A DNA stretch of 24,401 bases from a virus (IMGVR_UViG_2802429219_000006:1-24401), one strand, 5' to 3'; shown: positions 7,123-21,672, counted from the stretch's first letter. The notes: generated from the sequence alone by a model not told the origin. Translations and numbers: made by a program.

Positions 7123-9219
7123 TCACCTCGTCAAAAATTGTTGCTGGCCCACAACCTGGGCATCGAAGTTATCTCCAGGTTTTCTAAGAATCTCAAGCTG
7201 AATAAGGGCGCGCCCGTCAGGATTACTGGCAAGTACCTGCTGGGCATTTAGTAATTTACCTTCAAGCATCGGCCTCTGCTCTCTCATGGCTGGTATCTGT
7301 GCCATGAGCTTAAGGAGATAATCCACTGTTTCACTTTTAAGTCTCAGGGTATTATCTTTACCTACAGCAGCATTGCCTCCATTATACTGGGCCAGAACTT
7401 TTGCAATATCACCACCATAACGCTTCATGCTATCAGTAAGATACCTGGCGGCTGCATGTGTTGACTTTATTGGATCAAAAACATCATTTCCCACCAGCCC
7501 ATAAGCTTTTGCTGTTTCTGGAATAAATTGAAATAAACCTTTTGCACCAGCTTTGCTTATTGCATTTGGATTCCATCCTGATTCTTTTTGGGCTATTGCC
7601 GACATCATATTCTCAGGTAACAATGACGCCCGATTTACCTTTCTTACATATTCCTGCAATCCGTTTGCAGTCGCCACTCCCGGAATATCCATAGCGATTT
7701 CAGGCGTTCCCTGAACGGTATTTTTACGCCCAAGATCGGTATCAATACCTATCCAGCGAAGCGCATCACCAACATTTCTCTTGGTGTAGTCCCATGATGA
7801 ATTTGCCGAGGCAATGATATTCTCGTGATCTTTATACGCATAAGCACCATAAGCCATTGCCGCAGAGATCAACGGATGCCTCATCATCGCAGTTACAACC
7901 GCACTCGCCACGCCAGTGAAAGCCCCACTTCCTCCGGCAATAACCGCTGCCCCAAAAAGCCAGGGATGCTCCGCCGCAAAGCCAACAAACCCGCCAAGTG
8001 CCTTAGTGACCTTTGCAACATTTCCGGCGAAATTATTCAGGTCGTTATAAAAATCCGGGCTATTTACGTACTTACCAAGTTTATCCAGACCCGTTTCAAC
8101 ATCCGTCAGAATCCTTTTAAAGTTCTCACCGTTCATGAAATTCAGGGCAGCATTCGTGATGCCATTAGAAATTCTGATTAAGGGATATGCATTCCCGGCC
8201 AGCGCCCCCTGAAATCCACTGGTAAGCCGATCCCAGTTATTTTCTAAGTTACTGGTAAGATTCTGATACTGACTTGTATGTCCAGATGTGAGCAACGAGT
8301 CATTCTGAGAAGCCCGCAATAAAAACTCTTTATTGAGTTCAGGTATTTTGTCCTGATATTTGACTAACTGGTTAGTAAGACCAAAATTTACCCATCCAAG
8401 CCCCATTCCTCTGAAATTGCTCTGGGTAAGACCAGTTCCCTGATATTCCTTTGCCAGCGCTGCAACCTTTTTCAGGAATACAGGCAGGTTTTCAGTCGCG
8501 TTTTTATCAGGATTAAGCCCCAGATTAAGCAGGCCGACACGGGCAGGATGCGCTATATCATTTTGTGCGGCTGCCAGTGTATTGAGCACATTGCCAACAC
8601 CGGAAAAATAAGGCGAATAGGTACTCTCTGCCGCCTTTAATTCTCCCGGCGTTGCCATCAGCTCATCTGCATTTTTCTGTTTCTCTACAACATTACGAGC
8701 CATCATGCCAAAGCCAAACGGCCCGGCAACGCCCATAACCGCAAGTTTTGTCCCCCACGATACGGTAGTTTTAAACAGGTTGTTTAATCTCGAAGTGGTC
8801 GTCCGTAGCGTAGAATTGATCTGCTTGTAAGTTTTCAGCGTCTGTTTGGCGTTTTTCCCCAGCCCGCTGAGGTACTTATCAAACATCGTTTCGCCGCGAC
8901 CTTTATAGTTGCTCACCAGCGAATCAGGTGTTTTTCCGCTGCCAACAAAGCGCCCTTTTTCATCCCTTAAACGTCCATCAGTGGACGCAGTCGGAACTGG
9001 AGCAGGTGAAGATGGTTTCCTGGGAGCCTGATTGGCTTCTCCGCCTGTAGTTGTCTGCCGGGCGCCACCTCCCTGACCTGTATTTGAAGGTATTTTAAGC
9101 GGTGTCCCGGCAGGGCCAATCATCAACCCGTTGCGATATTTTTCAAATACCGCCTCGAGTCGTTTGAGTTGTTCCTCATTAATGTCCAGCGTAAGAACTG
9201 GCATCTGATTACCAGCCAT
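7123..9219 (-). CDS. Tail tape measure protein with C-terminal lytic transglycosylase (SLT) domain
   Basis: About 698 codons; Gly/Ala-rich hydrophobic segment (GGFVGFAAEHPWLFGAAVIAGGSGAFTGVASAVVTAMM) typical of tape measure proteins. C-terminal ...AIAQKESGWNPNAISKAGAKGLFQFIPETAKAYG is the catalytic ES / GLMQ-type motif of family 1 lytic transglycosylases. Located after the sheath, tube and chaperone genes. Confidence 0.8.
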   Translation of the reverse strand: MAGNQMPVLTLDINEEQLKRLEAVFEKYRNGLMIGPAGTPLKIPSNTGQGGGARQTTTGGEANQAPRKPSSPAPVPTASTDGRLRDEKGRFVGSGKTPDSLVSNYKGRGETMFDKYLSGLGKNAKQTLKTYKQINSTLRTTTSRLNNLFKTTVSWGTKLAVMGVAGPFGFGMMARNVVEKQKNADELMATPGELKAAESTYSPYFSGVGNVLNTLAAAQNDIAHPARVGLLNLGLNPDKNATENLPVFLKKVAALAKEYQGTGLTQSNFRGMGLGWVNFGLTNQLVKYQDKIPELNKEFLLRASQNDSLLTSGHTSQYQNLTSNLENNWDRLTSGFQGALAGNAYPLIRISNGITNAALNFMNGENFKRILTDVETGLDKLGKYVNSPDFYNDLNNFAGNVAKVTKALGGFVGFAAEHPWLFGAAVIAGGSGAFTGVASAVVTAMMRHPLISAAMAYGAYAYKDHENIIASANSSWDYTKRNVGDALRWIGIDTDLGRKNTVQGTPEIAMDIPGVATANGLQEYVRKVNRASLLPENMMSAIAQKESGWNPNAISKAGAKGLFQFIPETAKAYGLVGNDVFDPIKSTHAAARYLTDSMKRYGGDIAKVLAQYNGGNAAVGKDNTLRLKSETVDYLLKLMAQIPAMREQRPMLEGKLLNAQQVLASNPDGRALIQLEILRKPGDNFDAQVVGQQQFLTR

Positions 9220-9512
9220 CACAATACTCCTGCGGGATTTTTAAATTTGAGCAGCTCGCGAAACTGAGCTGCTGTTTTTACATTCAAACCGGAATCTGCA
9301 CAGATGTCTCTGAATCCGGCTCCGGCTGAGTAGTCGAGGATGTCGCTAATGATGTGTTCACCGTCGCGCCAGAACTGGCGGCAGACTTCAATGTCGGCAA
9401 GGAAGCAATCCAGTCCGTAAGATTCAAGGATGAGTATTGAGTGCTCCAGATTCCATTGACCACATCCAGAGTCCCTTTCGCCTGCTCCGGCGAATTTATT
9501 GACGAGACGCAT
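9219..9512 (-). CDS. -1 frame ORF overlapping the 3' part of the chaperone gene; probable frameshift extension (GT-like product)
   Basis: 97-codon ORF whose ATG sits immediately 3' of a U8 run in the mRNA; it ends in a TGATG overlap with the tape measure start. Its translation looks protein-like, while the 0-frame tail of the overlapping ORF is Ser/Thr-rich and low in complexity. Confidence 0.45.
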   Translation of the reverse strand: MRLVNKFAGAGERDSGCGQWNLEHSILILESYGLDCFLADIEVCRQFWRDGEHIISDILDYSAGAGFRDICADSGLNVKTAAQFRELLKFKNPAGVL

Positions 9513-9901
9513 GTAAAAAAAACGAGTTCACCCGCAACATCATCCAGCTCAACGATTTCACGCTCCAGCGCCATATCAAGAGGGATTGTGTCGTAACCTT
9601 TGCCCTCCACCGGATAAACAAGGTTTGCCAGGCGAATTATTTCGTTCACCAGCGTATTACGAACTCCCTTATCATCGTCCCAGATACCGGAATCACGCGA
9701 GATCCGCTCCAGCATCAGAAAAGCAACGCGCGGACCCGCAACGACGCCAAGACCTTCAGAAAAAATGGCAGAAAAGGTTTTACTCAGAATGAAGAAATGC
9801 TCTTTAAACACCTCTTTGCTGATCGGCGTGGCATGGATCCAGCCATTACCCTTTTCTGTCCGGACAGGAATAATCAGATTCAGATTTCGGGAGATTTTCA
9901 T
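9284..9901 (-). CDS. Tail assembly chaperone (G-like, 0-frame product)
   Basis: ORF 9284-9913 in the track. I prefer the ATG at 9901, which overlaps the tube gene stop (ATGA). Position between tube and tape measure. Confidence 0.5.
   Translation of the reverse strand: MKISRNLNLIIPVRTEKGNGWIHATPISKEVFKEHFFILSKTFSAIFSEGLGVVAGPRVAFLMLERISRDSGIWDDDKGVRNTLVNEIIRLANLVYPVEGKGYDTIPLDMALEREIVELDDVAGELVFFTCVSSINSPEQAKGTLDVVNGIWSTQYSSLNLTDWIASLPTLKSAASSGATVNTSLATSSTTQPEPDSETSVQIPV
9512..9523 (-). other. Candidate -1 programmed ribosomal frameshift site (U UUU UUU slippery run)
   Basis: The plus strand has AAAAAAAA at about 9515-9522. On the mRNA the 0-frame reads GUU UUU UUU ACA; a -1 slip continues into UAC AUG CGU..., the 97-codon frame. 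Confidence 0.45.
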
Positions 9902-10341
9902 ACCAGATCCCACATTTCAGAGTTGATGTAATACGTACCGGTAATGGTGATGGCCACACCCGGCTCGCCCCCGGCGAAGGTCATATCCTGCACATTGGTG
10001 ATCGCCGTGTTATAGATATCGAAGTCACCAAACACCGTGCTGTCGCTATACACTTTTGCGTCGCCGATCGTGGCGTTTTTTTCCCATTGCGCCTTGAATT
10101 GTTTTCCCAGCGCCTGGCTACGCAGCAGATGAACACGCGCCTGTAAAATCATGTATGGCTGCGGCGACTGCACGGCTCCCGTCATAGCGGGTAAAAACTC
10201 CGTGATATTGCCCTGAAAGGACAATTCGACGCCTTCTTTTGCCAGAAATGAGGCGGACACATTCAGTTCGGAATGAGAGGTGAATTTAACGCTGGCGCGA
10301 ACCCGGTTAAGGGTGCCAACGGGGATCATTGGATTAGGCAC
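9898..10341 (-). CDS. Tail tube protein (putative)
   Basis: 147-codon ORF immediately after the sheath gene and before the chaperone and tape measure genes; size typical of myovirus tube proteins. Confidence 0.55.
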   Translation of the reverse strand: MPNPMIPVGTLNRVRASVKFTSHSELNVSASFLAKEGVELSFQGNITEFLPAMTGAVQSPQPYMILQARVHLLRSQALGKQFKAQWEKNATIGDAKVYSDSTVFGDFDIYNTAITNVQDMTFAGGEPGVAITITGTYYINSEMWDLV

Positions 10342-10352
10342 GGTTCAGTCCC

Positions 10353-11690
10353 TCACGAAAGCTGCATTGTCACATTGATGTTAAAAATGATTTCGACAAA
10401 TCCACGCATCGGCGTATAGGTGGCCGACAGGCCTGCATAACGCCCGATACCGTAATCATTCGGATTGGTGTTGATATACTGGCGGAAAGACACTGCATCG
10501 ACGACAGGCTGGCCGTTGACCAGGCCGTAAGATACGCCCGTATTGAACACCGCCTGCGCGACCTGCTGCAGACGGTCGATCCCGTCCTGGTTGTAGTAAA
10601 GCGGGTTAATTGGGTTATTGCTGCCGTTGATCACCGTGTTGGCGAGCTGCATATCGACATTAATCTGCACCCAGTCCACGGAATACCAGTACGTCATATC
10701 GTTACCGTCACTGGTAACGCCTTTCACCAGAATCGTGTTGGAAATTCCACCCTCAGCCCCCGTGTCGACATAGTTAATATTCTGCTTCGTCATCGTGGCC
10801 AGAATGGAATTTTTGCCCTTGTGAGCATTTACCGCCTGCAGATAGCGAAATGCCATCGGCGGCACCTTGTTGATTTCTGAAGGTGATGCGGAAACATAGT
10901 TCCACATTACGGCTGCTGCCGCGTTTGTCGCCGGGTACGTATCATCCGCCGTTGCAATAACCGACTTAATACCGGCATAAGGCGAAACGTAATTCGTGTC
11001 GTCCGGCGTTTTCGTCAGCACGAAAAAATACTGCATCGCTTCGTTGGCGGTGTGGAGTTTTGCCAGACTGATAAACTCTGCGTCACCATCCCACGGCTGC
11101 GGCACCAGATACGCATAAAAACGCAGGAGCGGATCTTCCATATAAGCTTTCAGTGCAGCGATTTCCTTACTGACCCCGCCTTTCTGTACTCCCAGCTCCA
11201 GCAGGTAAATCCCAACTGAATTTCCCTGGGCAAAAAACGTGTTTACTGCCGTCACCAGATTTTCACTGCCGACAATGGAAAACTGCCCCAGTGTCACTGG
11301 CGAACCGGAAAGCTGAGAATCAGCAATCGTCCAGGTCAGTGTTTTTTCATCCGTGACGGTAGCAGTATATTCGCCATTCCACGCGTCGGGCGAACACCCG
11401 GAAACAACAATTTTCACCTCAGAACTGTTTTCGCGTCGGATGTTGCTCCCTTCCGGAAGCGTCATCGTAACGGTGACGTTTGCCGCAGATTTTCCTGCGG
11501 CAGCCGCCGACAACGCAGCAATCGGATTTCTTACCAGATCGTTAATATCCTGATTGCTGGTGAGTAATACAGGTTTCCCCGGCTCATGAGTCGTGGAGCC
11601 AAACGAGAGAACCGCAGACATCTGCTGCAAATTCGAGGGAATGGCCCCGATGGTCTGGGACACATTCACCGTGACGATATTAAACCCCAT
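10353..11690 (-). CDS. Tail sheath protein (putative)
   Basis: 445-codon ORF at the sheath position of a contractile-tail module. Not motif-verified. Confidence 0.55.
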   Translation of the reverse strand: MGFNIVTVNVSQTIGAIPSNLQQMSAVLSFGSTTHEPGKPVLLTSNQDINDLVRNPIAALSAAAAGKSAANVTVTMTLPEGSNIRRENSSEVKIVVSGCSPDAWNGEYTATVTDEKTLTWTIADSQLSGSPVTLGQFSIVGSENLVTAVNTFFAQGNSVGIYLLELGVQKGGVSKEIAALKAYMEDPLLRFYAYLVPQPWDGDAEFISLAKLHTANEAMQYFFVLTKTPDDTNYVSPYAGIKSVIATADDTYPATNAAAAVMWNYVSASPSEINKVPPMAFRYLQAVNAHKGKNSILATMTKQNINYVDTGAEGGISNTILVKGVTSDGNDMTYWYSVDWVQINVDMQLANTVINGSNNPINPLYYNQDGIDRLQQVAQAVFNTGVSYGLVNGQPVVDAVSFRQYINTNPNDYGIGRYAGLSATYTPMRGFVEIIFNINVTMQLS

Positions 11691-19214: not shown

Positions 19215-20543
19215 TTACAATTCCGCGTAATTACCGTGCGCGATGATCAATCCATAGGTGTAACAATCGAAAAGGTCATCAGCACGTTTATGCGCATCTT
19301 TGTCTGCCAGGTGGAACCCGGCGATTTGTTTTATGAGGTGGTTTGCGGTGGTGCGTTTGAATGAAACGGTCTTGTCGTAAGCCTCCCGGACGATTTTGCA
19401 CATCCCCTGATAGTGGTAGCTGGATGCCATCACCGCCCGTTCGTCTTTGCCCTTGCTGGTTAGTGCCGATTTAATCGGCGTCATATCCCAGCCTTCGGTT
19501 TCCGCCTTCTGGTTGAGAATTGCCCCCATCGCGGCGTCTTCCATAAAAATTCCCTGGCTGCCCAGACGCGGACGGCATAATTTCGCGAGGCGCTCGAGGT
19601 TGTCATAAACGCCGGGGATATATTCAGGAAGCAATGACGCTTTAATTTGCGTCACATCCCAGTCAATAATCGTCAGTTTTGGCTCGTCCGAATACGTTGA
19701 CTCATAAGAGAAATACACCACGCCAGTACCATCATTTTCGGTCCCGCCTTTCAGCGCCGTATCCATCACTGCGAAAATCATGTCGCAGTACAGCGGCATC
19801 TCAATTGGTTGGCCGTCCACCAGCAGCTTATCGACATCGAGTAACGCGTCTTTGGACCAGTCCACGAACTCTGCAAGATATTCCTGCTGCCAGACGCGCG
19901 GATCGGATTTCTTCTCCGTTTCCTCCAGTTCTTCTTTCGGAATATACGGATTCGATGAAGTTGGCGCATGATGCATGACAAATCCCAGGGATTCATCGTG
20001 GCATATCGCGTAGAAAAAATTGCTCTCGTCGATACCGTTTGGTGTGGAAAATACCCACGCACAGCCGCGGTAATCGACAAGCGTCGGGCGTATCGCTCGG
20101 GGCCAGATTTCCTCGAGCATTTCCGGCGATTTAGTGAATGCGGCCTCATCAATCAGCACAGCGTGATATTTACGCCCACGCCCGGCCAGTTTGTTATTGT
20201 CCGTTACCCAAAAGTCGATGCGCCCCCCATTACGGAGAATGATGCGCTTTTCATTTTTTGACTGACTGAGGATCAGCGGTTGCAGAACGGCGCTAATTTC
20301 ATCCCAGATTTCCTGGTACTGGCGGTATTGCGCGGTAAAAATCCCCACCCTACCCGCGATAAGTTGCCCGGTGGTAGGAACGGCAAATTTCCGCGTCGCG
20401 AAACTGGTAGCGATGTTTACCAGCATCACCGTTTTACCCCAGCGACGACCACAGCATACCGCGTGGAAGCGTTCCTCTATTGCCGCCGTCCATGCAGCTA
20501 TTTGCCCCTCATGAGGTTTTGGGAGGTAGATTTCAATCGACAT
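19215..20543 (-). CDS. Terminase large subunit
   Basis: 442-codon ORF with an N-terminal Walker A-like motif (CCGRRWGKT) and a ...VLIDEAAF... Walker B-like segment. Overlaps the small subunit gene end. Confidence 0.85.
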   Translation of the reverse strand: MSIEIYLPKPHEGQIAAWTAAIEERFHAVCCGRRWGKTVMLVNIATSFATRKFAVPTTGQLIAGRVGIFTAQYRQYQEIWDEISAVLQPLILSQSKNEKRIILRNGGRIDFWVTDNNKLAGRGRKYHAVLIDEAAFTKSPEMLEEIWPRAIRPTLVDYRGCAWVFSTPNGIDESNFFYAICHDESLGFVMHHAPTSSNPYIPKEELEETEKKSDPRVWQQEYLAEFVDWSKDALLDVDKLLVDGQPIEMPLYCDMIFAVMDTALKGGTENDGTGVVYFSYESTYSDEPKLTIIDWDVTQIKASLLPEYIPGVYDNLERLAKLCRPRLGSQGIFMEDAAMGAILNQKAETEGWDMTPIKSALTSKGKDERAVMASSYHYQGMCKIVREAYDKTVSFKRTTANHLIKQIAGFHLADKDAHKRADDLFDCYTYGLIIAHGNYAEL

Positions 20544-21672
20544 TATCCACTCCCGGCATCGGCAGAGAGTTGTGGATAATTATTTCGTTATTCTCACCAC
20601 CCACGCCTTTTTTGAGGTTTTCAATCTCAGTGCGCAGCTTTTCGTTGCGAAGCCTCAGTCCTTCAAGCTCCAGATCATTGCGACTGTCAGTTGCACCACC
20701 AGCAGAACTTCCTTTCGTCGCCATTATCAGCTTGATAAGTTCGCGCCGGGCGGCAGCCTTATCCTCCAGCAGGATCTCAACACCAAATTTCCCGAGTTTT
20801 GCCCCTGCATATAATTGTCGCGCATCCCCATCAAGCAGAGTGGTATCAGCCATATAAAGCTGTCCCGTTCCCTCACCGCAGCACTTCGGGCAGTCCGGAT
20901 TGGGTATGGCGTTATCAACAAAGCCAAGGCCTCCATATTCCGGCTCGGGTTTGCCATCTCTGGAGGCCTGTGCCGCTGCCTTATCGAATTCTGCAATATC
21001 ACGCCACTGGTAGAGGTGATTCTCGCCCCAGCAATAACGGCAGTTAACACGGCGAAATTGTGCCAACTGATTGGGGTCGGCCTGGACGATGGCCATCAAC
21101 TGACTCACCAGCAAATCCAGGTCTGCGGTATAGCGTTTCTGGTACTGATTGCGGAAGTAGCTGATAGCGCGAAAAACCTTATCATTTCTTATCAGGCGAC
21201 TGGCATTTGCGTACAACCCCTGACCTAAATCTGAATATCCTGCGTCACGGTAAGCCGTGGCCAGTTTTTTCCCTTGAGCAACCAGCATGGCGAATTTTGC
21301 CTGCTGGTCAGAAATGCCGAATTCATCAGGGGTGAAAGGGATATCAGCATCACTAGGCAACAAGCTGAAGCTGGTATTTTTAGAACCGTTTTTGGATGTC
21401 CGGGCATCGTTACATCCCGAACTTTTTTGCTCTTTTCCTGACTGCGAATTCGCGATTTTTTTGGGGTCTTTTTTTCGCGATTTTTTTCCCGAATTCGCGA
21501 TTTTTCCTCCACTTCCTGAAAGGAGAGCTTTAGCAGCCTTTATCGTGATATGGTTTTTCGCAGTTCCCCATGAATGGCCTTCTCTGTCACTCCACTCTTT
21601 AGGCTTTATTCCCGTCTGTCGCCATTCGTTTGCAAACCGGGATAATTCCTCACCCCAGTTCGTCCTGGCCAT
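20533..21672 (-). CDS. Terminase small subunit with extended N-terminal region
   Basis: 379-codon ORF with an AGGAGG Shine-Dalgarno. Central block ...AYRDAGYSDLGQGLYANASRLIRNDKVFRAI... matches the AGYS...A.RL..N..V..AI pattern I recall for small terminase subunits. It is directly upstream of the large subunit gene. Confidence 0.7.
   Translation of the reverse strand: MARTNWGEELSRFANEWRQTGIKPKEWSDREGHSWGTAKNHITIKAAKALLSGSGGKIANSGKKSRKKDPKKIANSQSGKEQKSSGCNDARTSKNGSKNTSFSLLPSDADIPFTPDEFGISDQQAKFAMLVAQGKKLATAYRDAGYSDLGQGLYANASRLIRNDKVFRAISYFRNQYQKRYTADLDLLVSQLMAIVQADPNQLAQFRRVNCRYCWGENHLYQWRDIAEFDKAAAQASRDGKPEPEYGGLGFVDNAIPNPDCPKCCGEGTGQLYMADTTLLDGDARQLYAGAKLGKFGVEILLEDKAAARRELIKLIMATKGSSAGGATDSRNDLELEGLRLRNEKLRTEIENLKKGVGGENNEIIIHNSLPMPGVDNVD

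What the first reader, a model, noticed from the sequence alone, without database searches (positions are those of the whole stretch)
9510..9530. U8 slippery run at the overlap of the two chaperone ORFs upstream of the tape measure gene
The mRNA reads C GUU UUU UUU ACA UGC in the 0-frame. A -1 slip on U UUU UUU leads straight into the 97-codon ORF (…VFF then YMRLVNKFAG…), which ends in a TGATG overlap with the tape measure start. This is the conserved G/GT-type programmed frameshift arrangement of tailed phages. One unusual feature is that the 0-frame stays open about 76 codons past the slip site, with a Ser/Thr-rich tail.
Basis: partly seen in the sequence, partly recalled or inferred. Interest (0 to 1): 0.5.

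Follow-up and report, generated by a model that had tools for sequence, protein, structure and literature searches.

The report
Conserved frameshift in phage tail chaperone
A run of eight U's in a prophage tail-assembly gene is very probably a real, evolutionarily conserved ribosome slip site that makes a second, fused protein; this is a well-known phage trick, here found in an unannotated gene family and placed unusually far from the end of the gene.

Summary
All genes lie on the minus strand. A T8 run (9522-9515) gives an in-phase U_UUU_UUU heptamer in a 205-codon ORF (9901-9284) that sits between the sheath and tube genes and a 698-aa tape-measure gene with a lytic transglycosylase domain. 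A -1 slip gives ...VFF-YMRLV... and a 98-codon extension. Its TGA overlaps the tape-measure ATG.

Comparative evidence strongly supports a programmed -1 frameshift:
- The heptamer sits in the same phase in 63 of 65 close relatives and in most sampled distant relatives down to 28% identity. Four of these are isolated phages.
- Phe and preceding codons are fixed as T-rich far beyond codon-usage expectation.
- The -1 frame opens at the slip and encodes a conserved domain.
- Several distant lineages have no start codon there.

No database annotates the frameshift.

The long 0-frame continuation is a family trait (median 59 codons, against 5 in lambda and 6 in P2). It is real protein. AlphaFold places the slip inside a helix of the folded domain, and about 20 codons are conserved in both frames. 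No conserved stimulatory RNA structure was found.

Verdict: a new variant of a known kind, of moderate interest. There is no experimental proof.

The parts
9284..9901 (-). 0-frame chaperone ORF ('G', TAC-N-like), 205 aa. Its ATG overlaps the tube gene stop (ATGA).
   Evidence: ORF list and sequence. phrog_11810, function unknown. No Pfam or NCBIfam hit. The family has 696 representatives at 50% clustering, typically 185-200 aa. AF2 model pLDDT 87.
9515..9522 (-). T8 run holding the in-phase slippery heptamer U_UUU_UUU (9521-9515). The P- and A-site Phe codons are 9520-9518 and 9517-9515.
   Evidence: Sequence. T8 is present in 63 of 65 related loci. It is conserved in phase in distant relatives as T8, T7 or U_UUU_UUC. 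39 of 40 slip-site Phe codons are TTT, against 48% TTT elsewhere in these genes.
9528..9530 (-). TGA stop that closes the -1 frame two codons (6 nt) upstream of the heptamer, three codons upstream of its two TTT codons.
   Evidence: Sequence. In the 16-lineage alignment, most lineages show -1-frame stops within 10 codons upstream of the slip and none shows one in the 56 codons after it.
9219..9515 (-). -1 frame segment translated after the slip ('T' part): Y-MRLVNKF...AGVL, 98 codons plus TGA. The predicted fusion GT is 227 aa.
   Evidence: phrog_14324. Only 17 gene-called clusters exist in the 5.8-billion-protein database. In the T-only part, diversity peaks at -1-frame third positions. A natural T9 variant, L058, encodes the 227-aa fusion directly.
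9222..9434 (-). Conserved core of the T domain (ILESYGLDCFLADIE...FWRDGEH...LDYSAGAGF...AAQFRELLKFK).
   Evidence: Alignment A2. The same motif series, LxLYGxxxFxADxE...LDWAAGxGF...[FY]RQRYLL, appears in the -1 frame of relatives down to 28% identity. It always starts 32 codons after the slip.
9392..9514 (-). G-specific structured segment (residues 130-170 of the 0-frame protein). It holds the end of helix 119-135, helix 138-152, strand 155-157 and helix 161-167, and is absent from GT.
   Evidence: The AF2 model has pLDDT of about 94 or more up to residue 170. The segment is conserved family-wide (LW..TSL..TE..SL.TS). The 0-frame third-position diversity pattern persists to about nt 510 of the gene.
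9287..9391 (-). Disordered Ser/Thr-rich C-terminal tail of the 0-frame protein (residues 171-205), ending QIPV.
   Evidence: pLDDT is 48-58 over this stretch. 14 of the last 35 residues are S or T. Here the -1 frame dominates the substitution pattern. 42% of family members end in S-[IVL]-P-x.
9361..9421 (-). Core of the truly dual-coding stretch, where both frames are under constraint.
   Evidence: Nucleotide diversity is 0.097 here against 0.18 in G-only sequence. Both frames score as conserved at codons +29 to +44 after the slip across 16 lineages.
7123..9219 (-). Tape-measure-like protein, 698 aa from the ATG, with a C-terminal SLT lytic transglycosylase domain. Its start is coupled to the T stop (TGATG), with GGAG at 9230-9227.
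   Evidence: Pfam SLT 2.8e-26. phrog_7694, phrog_2276 and other tape-measure or lytic tail families. Sequence.
9898..10341 (-). Presumed tail tube gene, 147 aa.
   Evidence: It lies directly after the sheath gene and is about 147 aa in all relatives. phrog_6566 has no assigned function. The identity is inferred from synteny only.
10353..11690 (-). Tail sheath gene, 445 aa.
   Evidence: phrog_205 tail sheath, E 7.6e-55.

Best explanation

Most ribosomes read the 0-frame and make a 205-aa protein, here called G. A minority slip when the two tRNA-Phe occupy UUU UUU in the P and A sites. Both tRNAs re-pair one base back on U_UUU_UUU and translation continues in the -1 frame. The product is a 227-aa fusion, GT: G residues 1-129, then Tyr, then a 97-residue T segment. 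The T frame terminates on the start codon of the tape-measure gene.

By analogy with lambda G/GT and P2 E/E+E', the shared N-terminal part would coat the tape-measure protein and the T domain would recruit the tube protein. The frameshift efficiency would fix the G:GT ratio.

The slip lies inside the folded domain, 76 codons before the 0-frame stop. GT is therefore not simply G plus an extension. The two products carry alternative C-terminal modules, encoded by about 230 nt read in two frames.

Shown: the sequence anatomy, its conservation, the dual coding, the absence of alternative starts in some distant relatives, and the synteny.
Inferred: that the slip happens, that it is ribosomal, its efficiency, and the chaperone roles.
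For: 1. Anatomy matches the finding exactly.

2. Synteny is sheath (phrog_205, 7.6e-55), then a 147-aa gene, then this ORF, then an SLT-bearing tape-measure gene. The same order holds in metagenomic and isolate relatives. P2 has the same order, with its annotated -1 site on T_TTT_TTG.

3. The slippery site is conserved.
- T8 is present in 63 of 65 loci at 50-100% identity, while the flanking codons vary synonymously.
- T8, T7 or U_UUU_UUC sits in the same phase in most sampled distant lineages at 28-45% identity. These include Klebsiella phage Chronis, Yersinia vB_YenM_21.09, Pantoea PdC23 and Shewanella QDWS.
- FF is present in 141 of 150 family representatives.

4. The constraint acts at nucleotide level. 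39 of 40 slip-site Phe codons are TTT, against 51 TTT to 56 TTC elsewhere in the same genes. The preceding codon ends in T in 20 of 21 lineages, against a 20% background.

5. The -1 frame is closed shortly upstream and open for 97-115 codons downstream. It encodes a domain conserved to 28% identity, always 32 codons after the slip.

6. Four distant lineages have no ATG, GTG or TTG between the slip and the T core. The window's own ATG has no Shine-Dalgarno sequence.

7. The residue after FF is T, I or M in 134 of 150 representatives and never L or V. This keeps the -1 codon as UAY, Tyr.

8. Substitution patterns hand over from 0-frame third positions to -1-frame third positions across the overlap. 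Diversity drops where both frames are conserved.

9. It is the only shared in-phase X_XXY_YYZ in the productive window. It is also the only in-gene homopolymer in the window that leads into a long -1 ORF.

10. U_UU.U_UU.Y belongs to the most efficient -1 motif class in E. coli, and U7 is under-represented in E. coli genes (PMC4066793).
Against: - There is no experimental evidence for the fusion protein.
- No conserved or unusually stable RNA structure lies downstream (z-scores -1.2 to +2.1) or upstream. There is no Rfam match. Any stimulator is therefore unidentified.
- About 4% of family representatives have only a U_UUU tetramer at the site: VYF[TI] and SFI variants.
- In the window and its close relatives an ATG sits one codon after the slip, so independent initiation cannot be excluded from this sequence alone.
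- A U8 run could also support transcriptional slippage, which would give the same protein.
Confidence: 0.8

Rival explanations
1. Transcriptional slippage. RNA polymerase stutters on the A8 template run and adds one U to a fraction of transcripts. A U9 mRNA encodes the same G-T fusion through standard translation.
For: - The run is usually T8, one longer than the ribosomal heptamer needs.
- A U9 message would give exactly the VFF-YMRLV junction, as the natural T9 variant L058 shows (227-aa ORF).
- U7 runs are thought to be avoided in E. coli genes partly because of transcriptional slippage (PMC4066793).
- A weak hairpin abuts the run in the window.
Against: - Lineages with only T7 (L070, L075) or T7 followed by C (L079) keep the exact ribosomal phase X_XXY_YYZ.
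- The 3' end of the in-phase heptamer always falls on a codon boundary. A polymerase would not require this.
- Variants with only a U_UUU tetramer keep an intact T ORF.
- The upstream hairpin is weak, with 5 pairs of which 2 are G-U. It is not conserved.
- From general knowledge, efficient slippage in bacteria usually needs runs of 9 or more.
Confidence: 0.1
2. There is no recoding. The 97-codon ORF is an independent small gene translated from its own ATG (9512). The U-run is conserved only because Val-Phe-Phe is structurally required in the 0-frame protein.
For: - The window and its close relatives have ATG one codon after the run.
- PHROGs and a few gene callers treat it as a separate 97-aa protein.
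- FF lies in a confidently modelled helix, so there is protein-level constraint on it.
Against: - No Shine-Dalgarno sequence precedes that ATG.
- Distant relatives have no ATG there, and four have no ATG, GTG or TTG anywhere before the conserved T core.
- Protein constraint on FF does not explain the exclusive use of TTT over TTC, or the fixed T at the preceding wobble position.
- The -1 frame opens at the run, not at a start codon.
Confidence: 0.04
3. The run is a mutational on/off switch, or a pseudogene scar. Homopolymer indels at T8 toggle between G-only and GT-only genomes, and no slippage occurs during expression.
For: T9 occurs in L058, and T9 together with a T7 at a second run occurs in L065.
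Against: - 63 of 65 loci have exactly T8.
- Both frames downstream are under purifying selection in the same genomes. That requires both products from one genotype.
- L065 carries indels at two homopolymers, which looks like sequencing error.
Confidence: 0.03

Closest known systems
Phage lambda gpG / gpGT (-1 frameshift on G_GGA_AAG)
   Same: Two overlapping ORFs lie between the major tail or tube gene and the tape-measure gene. A -1 slip on an in-phase heptamer produces a minor fusion whose extra domain is encoded in the -1 frame. The -1 ORF ends at the tape-measure start (PMC5009743).
   Different: - Lambda's slip is 5 codons before the G stop. Here it is 76 codons before, and inside the folded domain.
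- The heptamer is different.
- There is no detectable sequence similarity.
- Lambda is a siphovirus. This is a contractile-tail module.
Phage P2 gpE / gpE+E' (-1 frameshift on T_TTT_TTG)
   Same: The gene order is the same: sheath (FI), tube (FII), E/E+E', tape measure (T). The slippery site is U-rich with the same U6 core. E+E' ends overlapping the tape-measure start.
   Different: - P2 E is 91 aa, with 6 codons left after the slip. Here G is 205 aa, with 76 codons left.
- There is no sequence similarity by Pfam.
Pakpunavirus / Andersonviridae myophage chaperone locus (TAC-N / TAC-NC, conserved GTTTTT motif)
   Same: This is an unannotated downstream 'hypothetical' ORF in myophages, argued from comparative genomics to be the -1 extension of the chaperone. 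The slip motif is poly-T (PMC12846349).
   Different: There the motif lies near the 3' end of TAC-N. Here it lies two-thirds of the way along the ORF, followed by a long conserved dual-coding stretch.
E. coli dnaX (tau/gamma) and IS3-family orfA/orfAB frameshifts
   Same: A -1 slip on a homopolymeric heptamer gives two products that share an N-terminal part and differ at the C-terminus. U_UU.U_UU.C is used by some IS elements (PMC4066793).
   Different: Those systems use defined stimulators, an upstream SD-like element and a downstream hairpin or pseudoknot. No conserved structure was found here. The function is unrelated.

Membership tests
Frameshifted tail assembly chaperone pair (lambda G/GT, P2 E/E+E' type) | Located between the tail tube (major tail) gene and the tape-measure gene, on the same strand | tested here: met
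   Sheath 10353-11690 (phrog_205), a 147-aa gene, this ORF, then the SLT tape-measure gene. The same order holds in relatives and in P2. The tube identity is inferred from synteny only.
Frameshifted tail assembly chaperone pair (lambda G/GT, P2 E/E+E' type) | In-phase slippery heptamer X_XXY_YYZ in the overlap, conserved among relatives | tested here: met
   U_UUU_UUU at 9521-9515. It is conserved in 63 of 65 close relatives and in most sampled distant lineages. It is the only shared in-phase motif. About 4% of the family keeps only the tetramer U_UUU.
Frameshifted tail assembly chaperone pair (lambda G/GT, P2 E/E+E' type) | Downstream -1 ORF without its own translation start, conserved as protein, open from the slip site | tested here: met
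   Four distant lineages have no ATG, GTG or TTG before the conserved core. The window's ATG lacks an SD. The -1 frame has stops just upstream of the slip.
Frameshifted tail assembly chaperone pair (lambda G/GT, P2 E/E+E' type) | [quoted passage not shown] | tested here: not met
   76 codons remain here, and the family median is 59. Lambda has 5 and P2 has 6. The slip falls within helix 119-135 of the AF2 model, so GT lacks about 40 structured residues of G.
Frameshifted tail assembly chaperone pair (lambda G/GT, P2 E/E+E' type) | Fusion protein made at a low, fixed ratio and required for tail assembly; neither protein present in virions | not testable with these tools
   Needs mass spectrometry, reporter assays and genetics.
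Frameshifted tail assembly chaperone pair (lambda G/GT, P2 E/E+E' type) | The shared part binds the tape-measure protein; the T part binds the tube protein | not testable with these tools
   Inferred by analogy only (PMC5009743).
Curated chaperone sequence families (Pfam Phage_TAC and related families, NCBIfam) | Significant profile match | tested here: not met
   There are no Pfam or NCBIfam hits for either ORF at E of 0.01 or better. The PHROGs families 11810 and 14324 have no assigned function.
Tail assembly chaperone fold | Structural similarity to known or annotated chaperones | tested here: inconclusive
Programmed transcriptional slippage site | Long A/T run (usually 9 or more), independent of reading phase, sometimes with an adjacent nascent-RNA hairpin | tested here: inconclusive
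   The run is 8 nt, or 7 in three lineages. Its phase is strictly conserved. There is no conserved upstream hairpin. Slippage by the polymerase is not excluded for U8.

The most novel reading that the evidence does not exclude
The frameshift works as a module swap inside a folded domain rather than as a C-terminal extension.

G and GT share only residues 1-129. G then completes its fold with two helices, a strand and a disordered Ser/Thr tail that often ends in S-[IVL]-P-x. GT replaces all of this with a 32-residue linker and the T domain.

The two alternatives are encoded by about 60-80 codons read in both frames. About 20 of those codons are under purifying selection in both frames across a family that has diverged to 28% identity, with not a single indel over the 32 codons after the slip. 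If this is correct, the family is an unusually long and ancient dual-coding region in a phage. It would also imply that the short and long chaperones have partly different partners or oligomeric states.
Probability: 0.45. Interest if true: 0.5.

Novelty: new variant of a known kind. Interest (0 to 1): 0.4.

Why it matters
- **Annotation.** The family is large: 696 clusters at 50% identity. It occurs as prophages in 92 of 5,426 complete E. coli genomes and in isolated Klebsiella, Yersinia, Pantoea and Shewanella phages. In every record inspected the chaperone is 'hypothetical protein' and the -1 product is missing. A 100-230 nt 'intergenic gap' before the tape-measure gene is in fact coding.
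- **Mechanism.** The site gives a clean natural series for testing how much frameshifting a bare U-run supports in enterobacteria. The series runs U8, U7, U_UUU_UUC and the U_UUU tetramer, with no evident RNA stimulator.
- **Chaperone biology.** It is a counter-example to the rule that the slip lies at the 3' end of the short chaperone gene. Frameshift finders that only inspect short overlaps between called genes will miss it.
- **Tail assembly.** If the two products really have alternative C-terminal modules, the lambda model of 'G plus a T extension' does not transfer unchanged to these contractile tails.

Tried and rejected
- **Downstream stimulatory structure.** I folded 80-130 nt after the slip in the window and in 19 relatives. 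No hairpin was shared, and z-scores ran from -1.2 to +2.1.
- **Upstream hairpin or terminator-like element.** The scan flagged a 5-pair stem (9535-9522) abutting the U-run. It is weak and absent in relatives, so I rejected it.
- **Known RNA families.** There is no Rfam match in 9150-9700 at E of 1 or better.
- **Structure of the T ORF alone.** With 10 close homologues the model reached only pLDDT 45 and was unusable, so I ran no fold search on it.
- **Loci search with the diverse alignment A1.** The AFDB50 library was not available.
- **Natural in-frame G-T fusions or stand-alone T genes.** A search with the T ORF found only 17 clusters, all close relatives or mis-assembled fragments. None was a genuine fusion.
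- **Other slip sites in the overlap.** Extra in-phase heptamers appear in only two lineages and are not shared.
- **An SD-like GG element about 9-10 nt upstream of the heptamer.** It comes from the conserved Gly codon of the E-G-E-L-V-F-F motif. I noted it but did not test it, because it cannot be separated from the protein constraint.
- **Literature.** I found no description of a frameshift in this family in the papers that mention Chronis, PdC23, the Yersinia phages or the Roth phages.

Full report
**Observation**

All genes of this 24.4-kb window lie on the minus strand and form a phage morphogenesis module. Its genes are:
- small and large terminase, portal, head morphogenesis, protease-like and major head proteins;
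- a tail sheath (phrog_205, E 7.6e-55), 10353-11690;
- a 147-aa gene in the tube position, 9898-10341;
- the ORF of interest, 9284-9901;
- a 698-aa tape-measure-like protein with a C-terminal SLT lytic transglycosylase domain, 7123-9219;
- baseplate hub and wedge genes.

The minus strand reads ...GAA CTC GTT TTT TTT ACA TGC..., with the T8 run at 9522-9515.
- The 0-frame codons match those given.
- A -1 slip gives VFF followed by YMRLVNKFAG.
- The -1 frame is closed by TGA at 9530-9528 and then stays open for 98 codons.
- Its TGA (9221-9219) shares the A with the tape-measure ATG (9219-9217), nine bases after a GGAG.
- The 0-frame runs 76 codons past the heptamer.
- 14 of its last 35 residues are Ser or Thr.

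A U7+ run is not improbable in itself: there are 16 in the window against 11.8 expected. However, of nine such runs inside genes on the coding strand, only this one leads into a long -1 ORF.

**Conservation of the site**

The region is a prophage found in 92 of 5,426 complete E. coli genomes. It is about 93-95% identical in DNA to Escherichia phage Rac-SA53 and to a record named Actinobacillus phage vB_Apl-pPE4.

In 65 related loci (50-100% protein identity), 63 carry exactly T8 followed by ACATG. The codons around the run vary synonymously: GAACTC, GAGCTC, CAGCTT, GAGCTG, and GTT or ATT.

The 0-frame protein belongs to a large unannotated family:
- 696 representatives at 50% clustering, of which 542 have E of 1e-10 or better;
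- typical length 185-200 aa;
- alignment to query residues 1 to about 182.

I recovered DNA for distant members at 28-45% identity. These were metagenomic contigs L066, L068-L071, L077-L079 and L083, plus four isolates: Klebsiella phage vB_Kpn_Chronis, Yersinia phage vB_YenM_21.09, Pantoea phage PdC23 and Shewanella phage vB_Sb_QDWS. All but two carry U_UUU_UUU (T8 or T7) or U_UUU_UUC at the same codons and in the same phase. The two exceptions are L077 (GTG TCT TTT ATT) and L083 (GTA TAT TTT ACG). They keep only the tetramer U_UUU but still have an intact -1 ORF.

Of 150 family representatives, 141 have Phe-Phe at this position.

The constraint acts on nucleotides, not only on amino acids.
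- 39 of 40 slip-site Phe codons are TTT. Elsewhere in the same genes the split is 51 TTT to 56 TTC.
- The wobble base of the preceding codon is T in 20 of 21 lineages, against a 20% background.
- The residue after Phe-Phe is Thr, Ile or Met in 134 of 150 and never Leu or Val. This keeps the first -1 codon as UAY, Tyr.

**The -1 ORF**

In every lineage where the contig reaches that far, the -1 frame stays open for 97-115 codons after the slip. Most lineages have -1-frame stops within 10 codons upstream of it. The -1 ORF ends at or overlapping the tape-measure start.

It encodes a conserved domain: LxLYGxxxFxADxE ... LDWAAGxGF ... [FY]RQRYLL. This domain begins exactly 32 codons after the slip in all lineages.

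Four distant lineages have no ATG, GTG or TTG at all between the slip and this domain. The ATG present in the window has no Shine-Dalgarno sequence. The conserved heptamer is the only in-phase X_XXY_YYZ shared across lineages in the productive window.

Gene callers almost never call this ORF: it has 17 clusters, against hundreds for the 0-frame protein. In PGAP and in the phage records inspected, both the chaperone and the region are 'hypothetical' or unannotated.

**The unusual feature**

The long 0-frame continuation is a family trait. The median is 59 codons, with a 5-95% range of 54-83. In lambda, 5 codons follow G_GGA_AAG. In P2, 6 codons follow T_TTT_TTG.

The continuation is not filler. 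An AlphaFold2 model built on 42 family members (mean pLDDT 87) shows one confident domain spanning residues 8-170. The two Phe codons fall inside helix 119-135. After them come helix 138-152, a short strand and helix 161-167. Only residues 171-205 are disordered. This post-slip segment is conserved across the family as LW..TSL..TE..SL.TS.

Among 46 distinct close relatives, nucleotide diversity behaves as follows:
- It peaks at 0-frame third positions in the G-only part (0.38).
- The 0-frame pattern persists to about nt 510 of the gene.
- Diversity is low overall at nt 480-540 (0.097).
- The peak then switches to -1-frame third positions through the end of the T ORF.

Across 16 divergent lineages, both frames score as conserved at codons +29 to +44. 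So about 20 codons are genuinely dual-coding. The predicted fusion lacks about 40 structured residues of the short protein and does not simply extend it.

**Mechanism**

The best-supported mechanism is tandem -1 re-pairing of the two tRNA-Phe on U_UUU_UUU. In E. coli, H_HH.U_UU.Y heptamers are among the most efficient -1 motifs, U_UU.U and U_UU.C are among the most shift-prone tetramers, and U7 is under-represented in genes (PMC4066793). This matches the set of variants tolerated in this family.

I found no conserved stimulator.
- Downstream folds are not shared and are not more stable than shuffles.
- The upstream stem flagged by the terminator scan is weak and not conserved.
- There is no Rfam match.
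- A GG-containing element lies 9-10 nt upstream. It derives from a conserved Gly codon and cannot be separated from the protein constraint.

Transcriptional slippage on U8 would yield the same protein and cannot be excluded. The strict phase conservation and the U7, U6C and tetramer variants argue for the ribosome.

The chaperone roles are inferred from lambda and P2 (PMC5009743) and from synteny. By this analogy the shared part would bind the tape measure and T would recruit the tube protein. Sequence searches find no link to curated chaperone families. Fold searches are negative for solved structures and only weakly suggestive for predicted viral chaperones.

**Comparison and novelty**

This works like the lambda G/GT and P2 E/E+E' systems, and like the poly-T site recently argued for Pakpunavirus chaperones (PMC12846349). 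It meets the criteria of position, heptamer and start-less -1 ORF. It fails the usual criterion of a slip near the 3' end, and it fails sequence-family membership.

I found no description of a frameshift for this family in the papers that mention its isolates. The library does not cover subscription journals.

I rate it a new variant of a known kind. The phenomenon is classical. The family, the mid-domain position and the long conserved dual-coding stretch are not documented in what I could search.

**Limits**

- Nothing here demonstrates the fusion protein.
- Efficiency is unknown.
- The structural statement rests on a predicted model.
- The T domain could not be modelled (pLDDT 45), and the fusion could not be submitted.
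- The codon-usage probabilities ignore shared ancestry, although the lineages compared are saturated at synonymous sites.

Noticed in passing
window 21456-21487 (minus strand), inside the small-terminase-like ORF 20533-21672: Three A7 runs fall within 32 nt: GGGAAAAAAATCGCGAAAAAAAGACCCCAAAAAAATCGCG. The unit AAAAAAATCGCG occurs twice. Phased A-tracts inside a terS gene could be bent DNA or a packaging (pac-like) site.
   Followed up: no
window 9250-9273 (minus strand), in the T-only coding part about 30-50 nt upstream of the tape-measure start: There is a perfect 8-10 bp inverted repeat, AGCAGCTC-N6/8-GAGCTGCT, with a fold energy of about -15 kcal/mol as RNA. It is kept in 44 of 46 distinct close relatives. 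The changes seen preserve wobble pairing, but there are no compensatory double changes. It may be a by-product of the conserved AAQFRELL peptide or a hairpin that affects tape-measure translation.
   Followed up: partly
L058 (IMGVR_UViG_2896595138_000001) and L065 (IMGVR_UViG_2675903388_000005), at the slip site: L058 has T9 instead of T8, which fuses G and T into one 227-aa ORF. L065 has T9 at the slip site plus T7 at a second run (nt 136), which truncates G. These are either homopolymer sequencing errors or evidence that the run is a mutational hot spot.
   Followed up: partly
C-terminus of the 0-frame protein, window 9287-9298, and family representatives P0121-P0270: After a low-complexity Ser/Thr/Ala/Pro tail, 60 of 144 full-length family members end in S-[IVL]-P-x, and 79 of 144 end in [IVLP]-P-x. 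The window protein ends QIPV. This could be a docking motif of the short chaperone or a by-product of the overlapping T frame.
   Followed up: partly
window 9419-9514 and all relatives: The distance from the slip to the first conserved T-domain motif (LYG) is exactly 32 codons in every lineage examined down to 28% identity. No indel has been tolerated there, presumably because the stretch is also the folded C-terminal part of the 0-frame protein.
   Followed up: yes
PP818812.1 and NZ_CP026085.1: A record named Actinobacillus phage vB_Apl-pPE4 is 94.6% identical over this E. coli-type prophage region. A genome labelled E. coli DH5alpha (4.83 Mb) carries the prophage at the same 86.1% identity as E. 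coli W. The host and strain labels of both records look doubtful.
   Followed up: no
relatives L066, L068, L071, L073-L076: Gene callers leave a 100-230 nt 'intergenic gap' between the chaperone gene and the tape-measure gene in all distant relatives. The gap is filled by the uncalled -1 ORF. In some relatives the tape-measure protein carries a Phage_lysozyme2 domain instead of SLT.
   Followed up: partly
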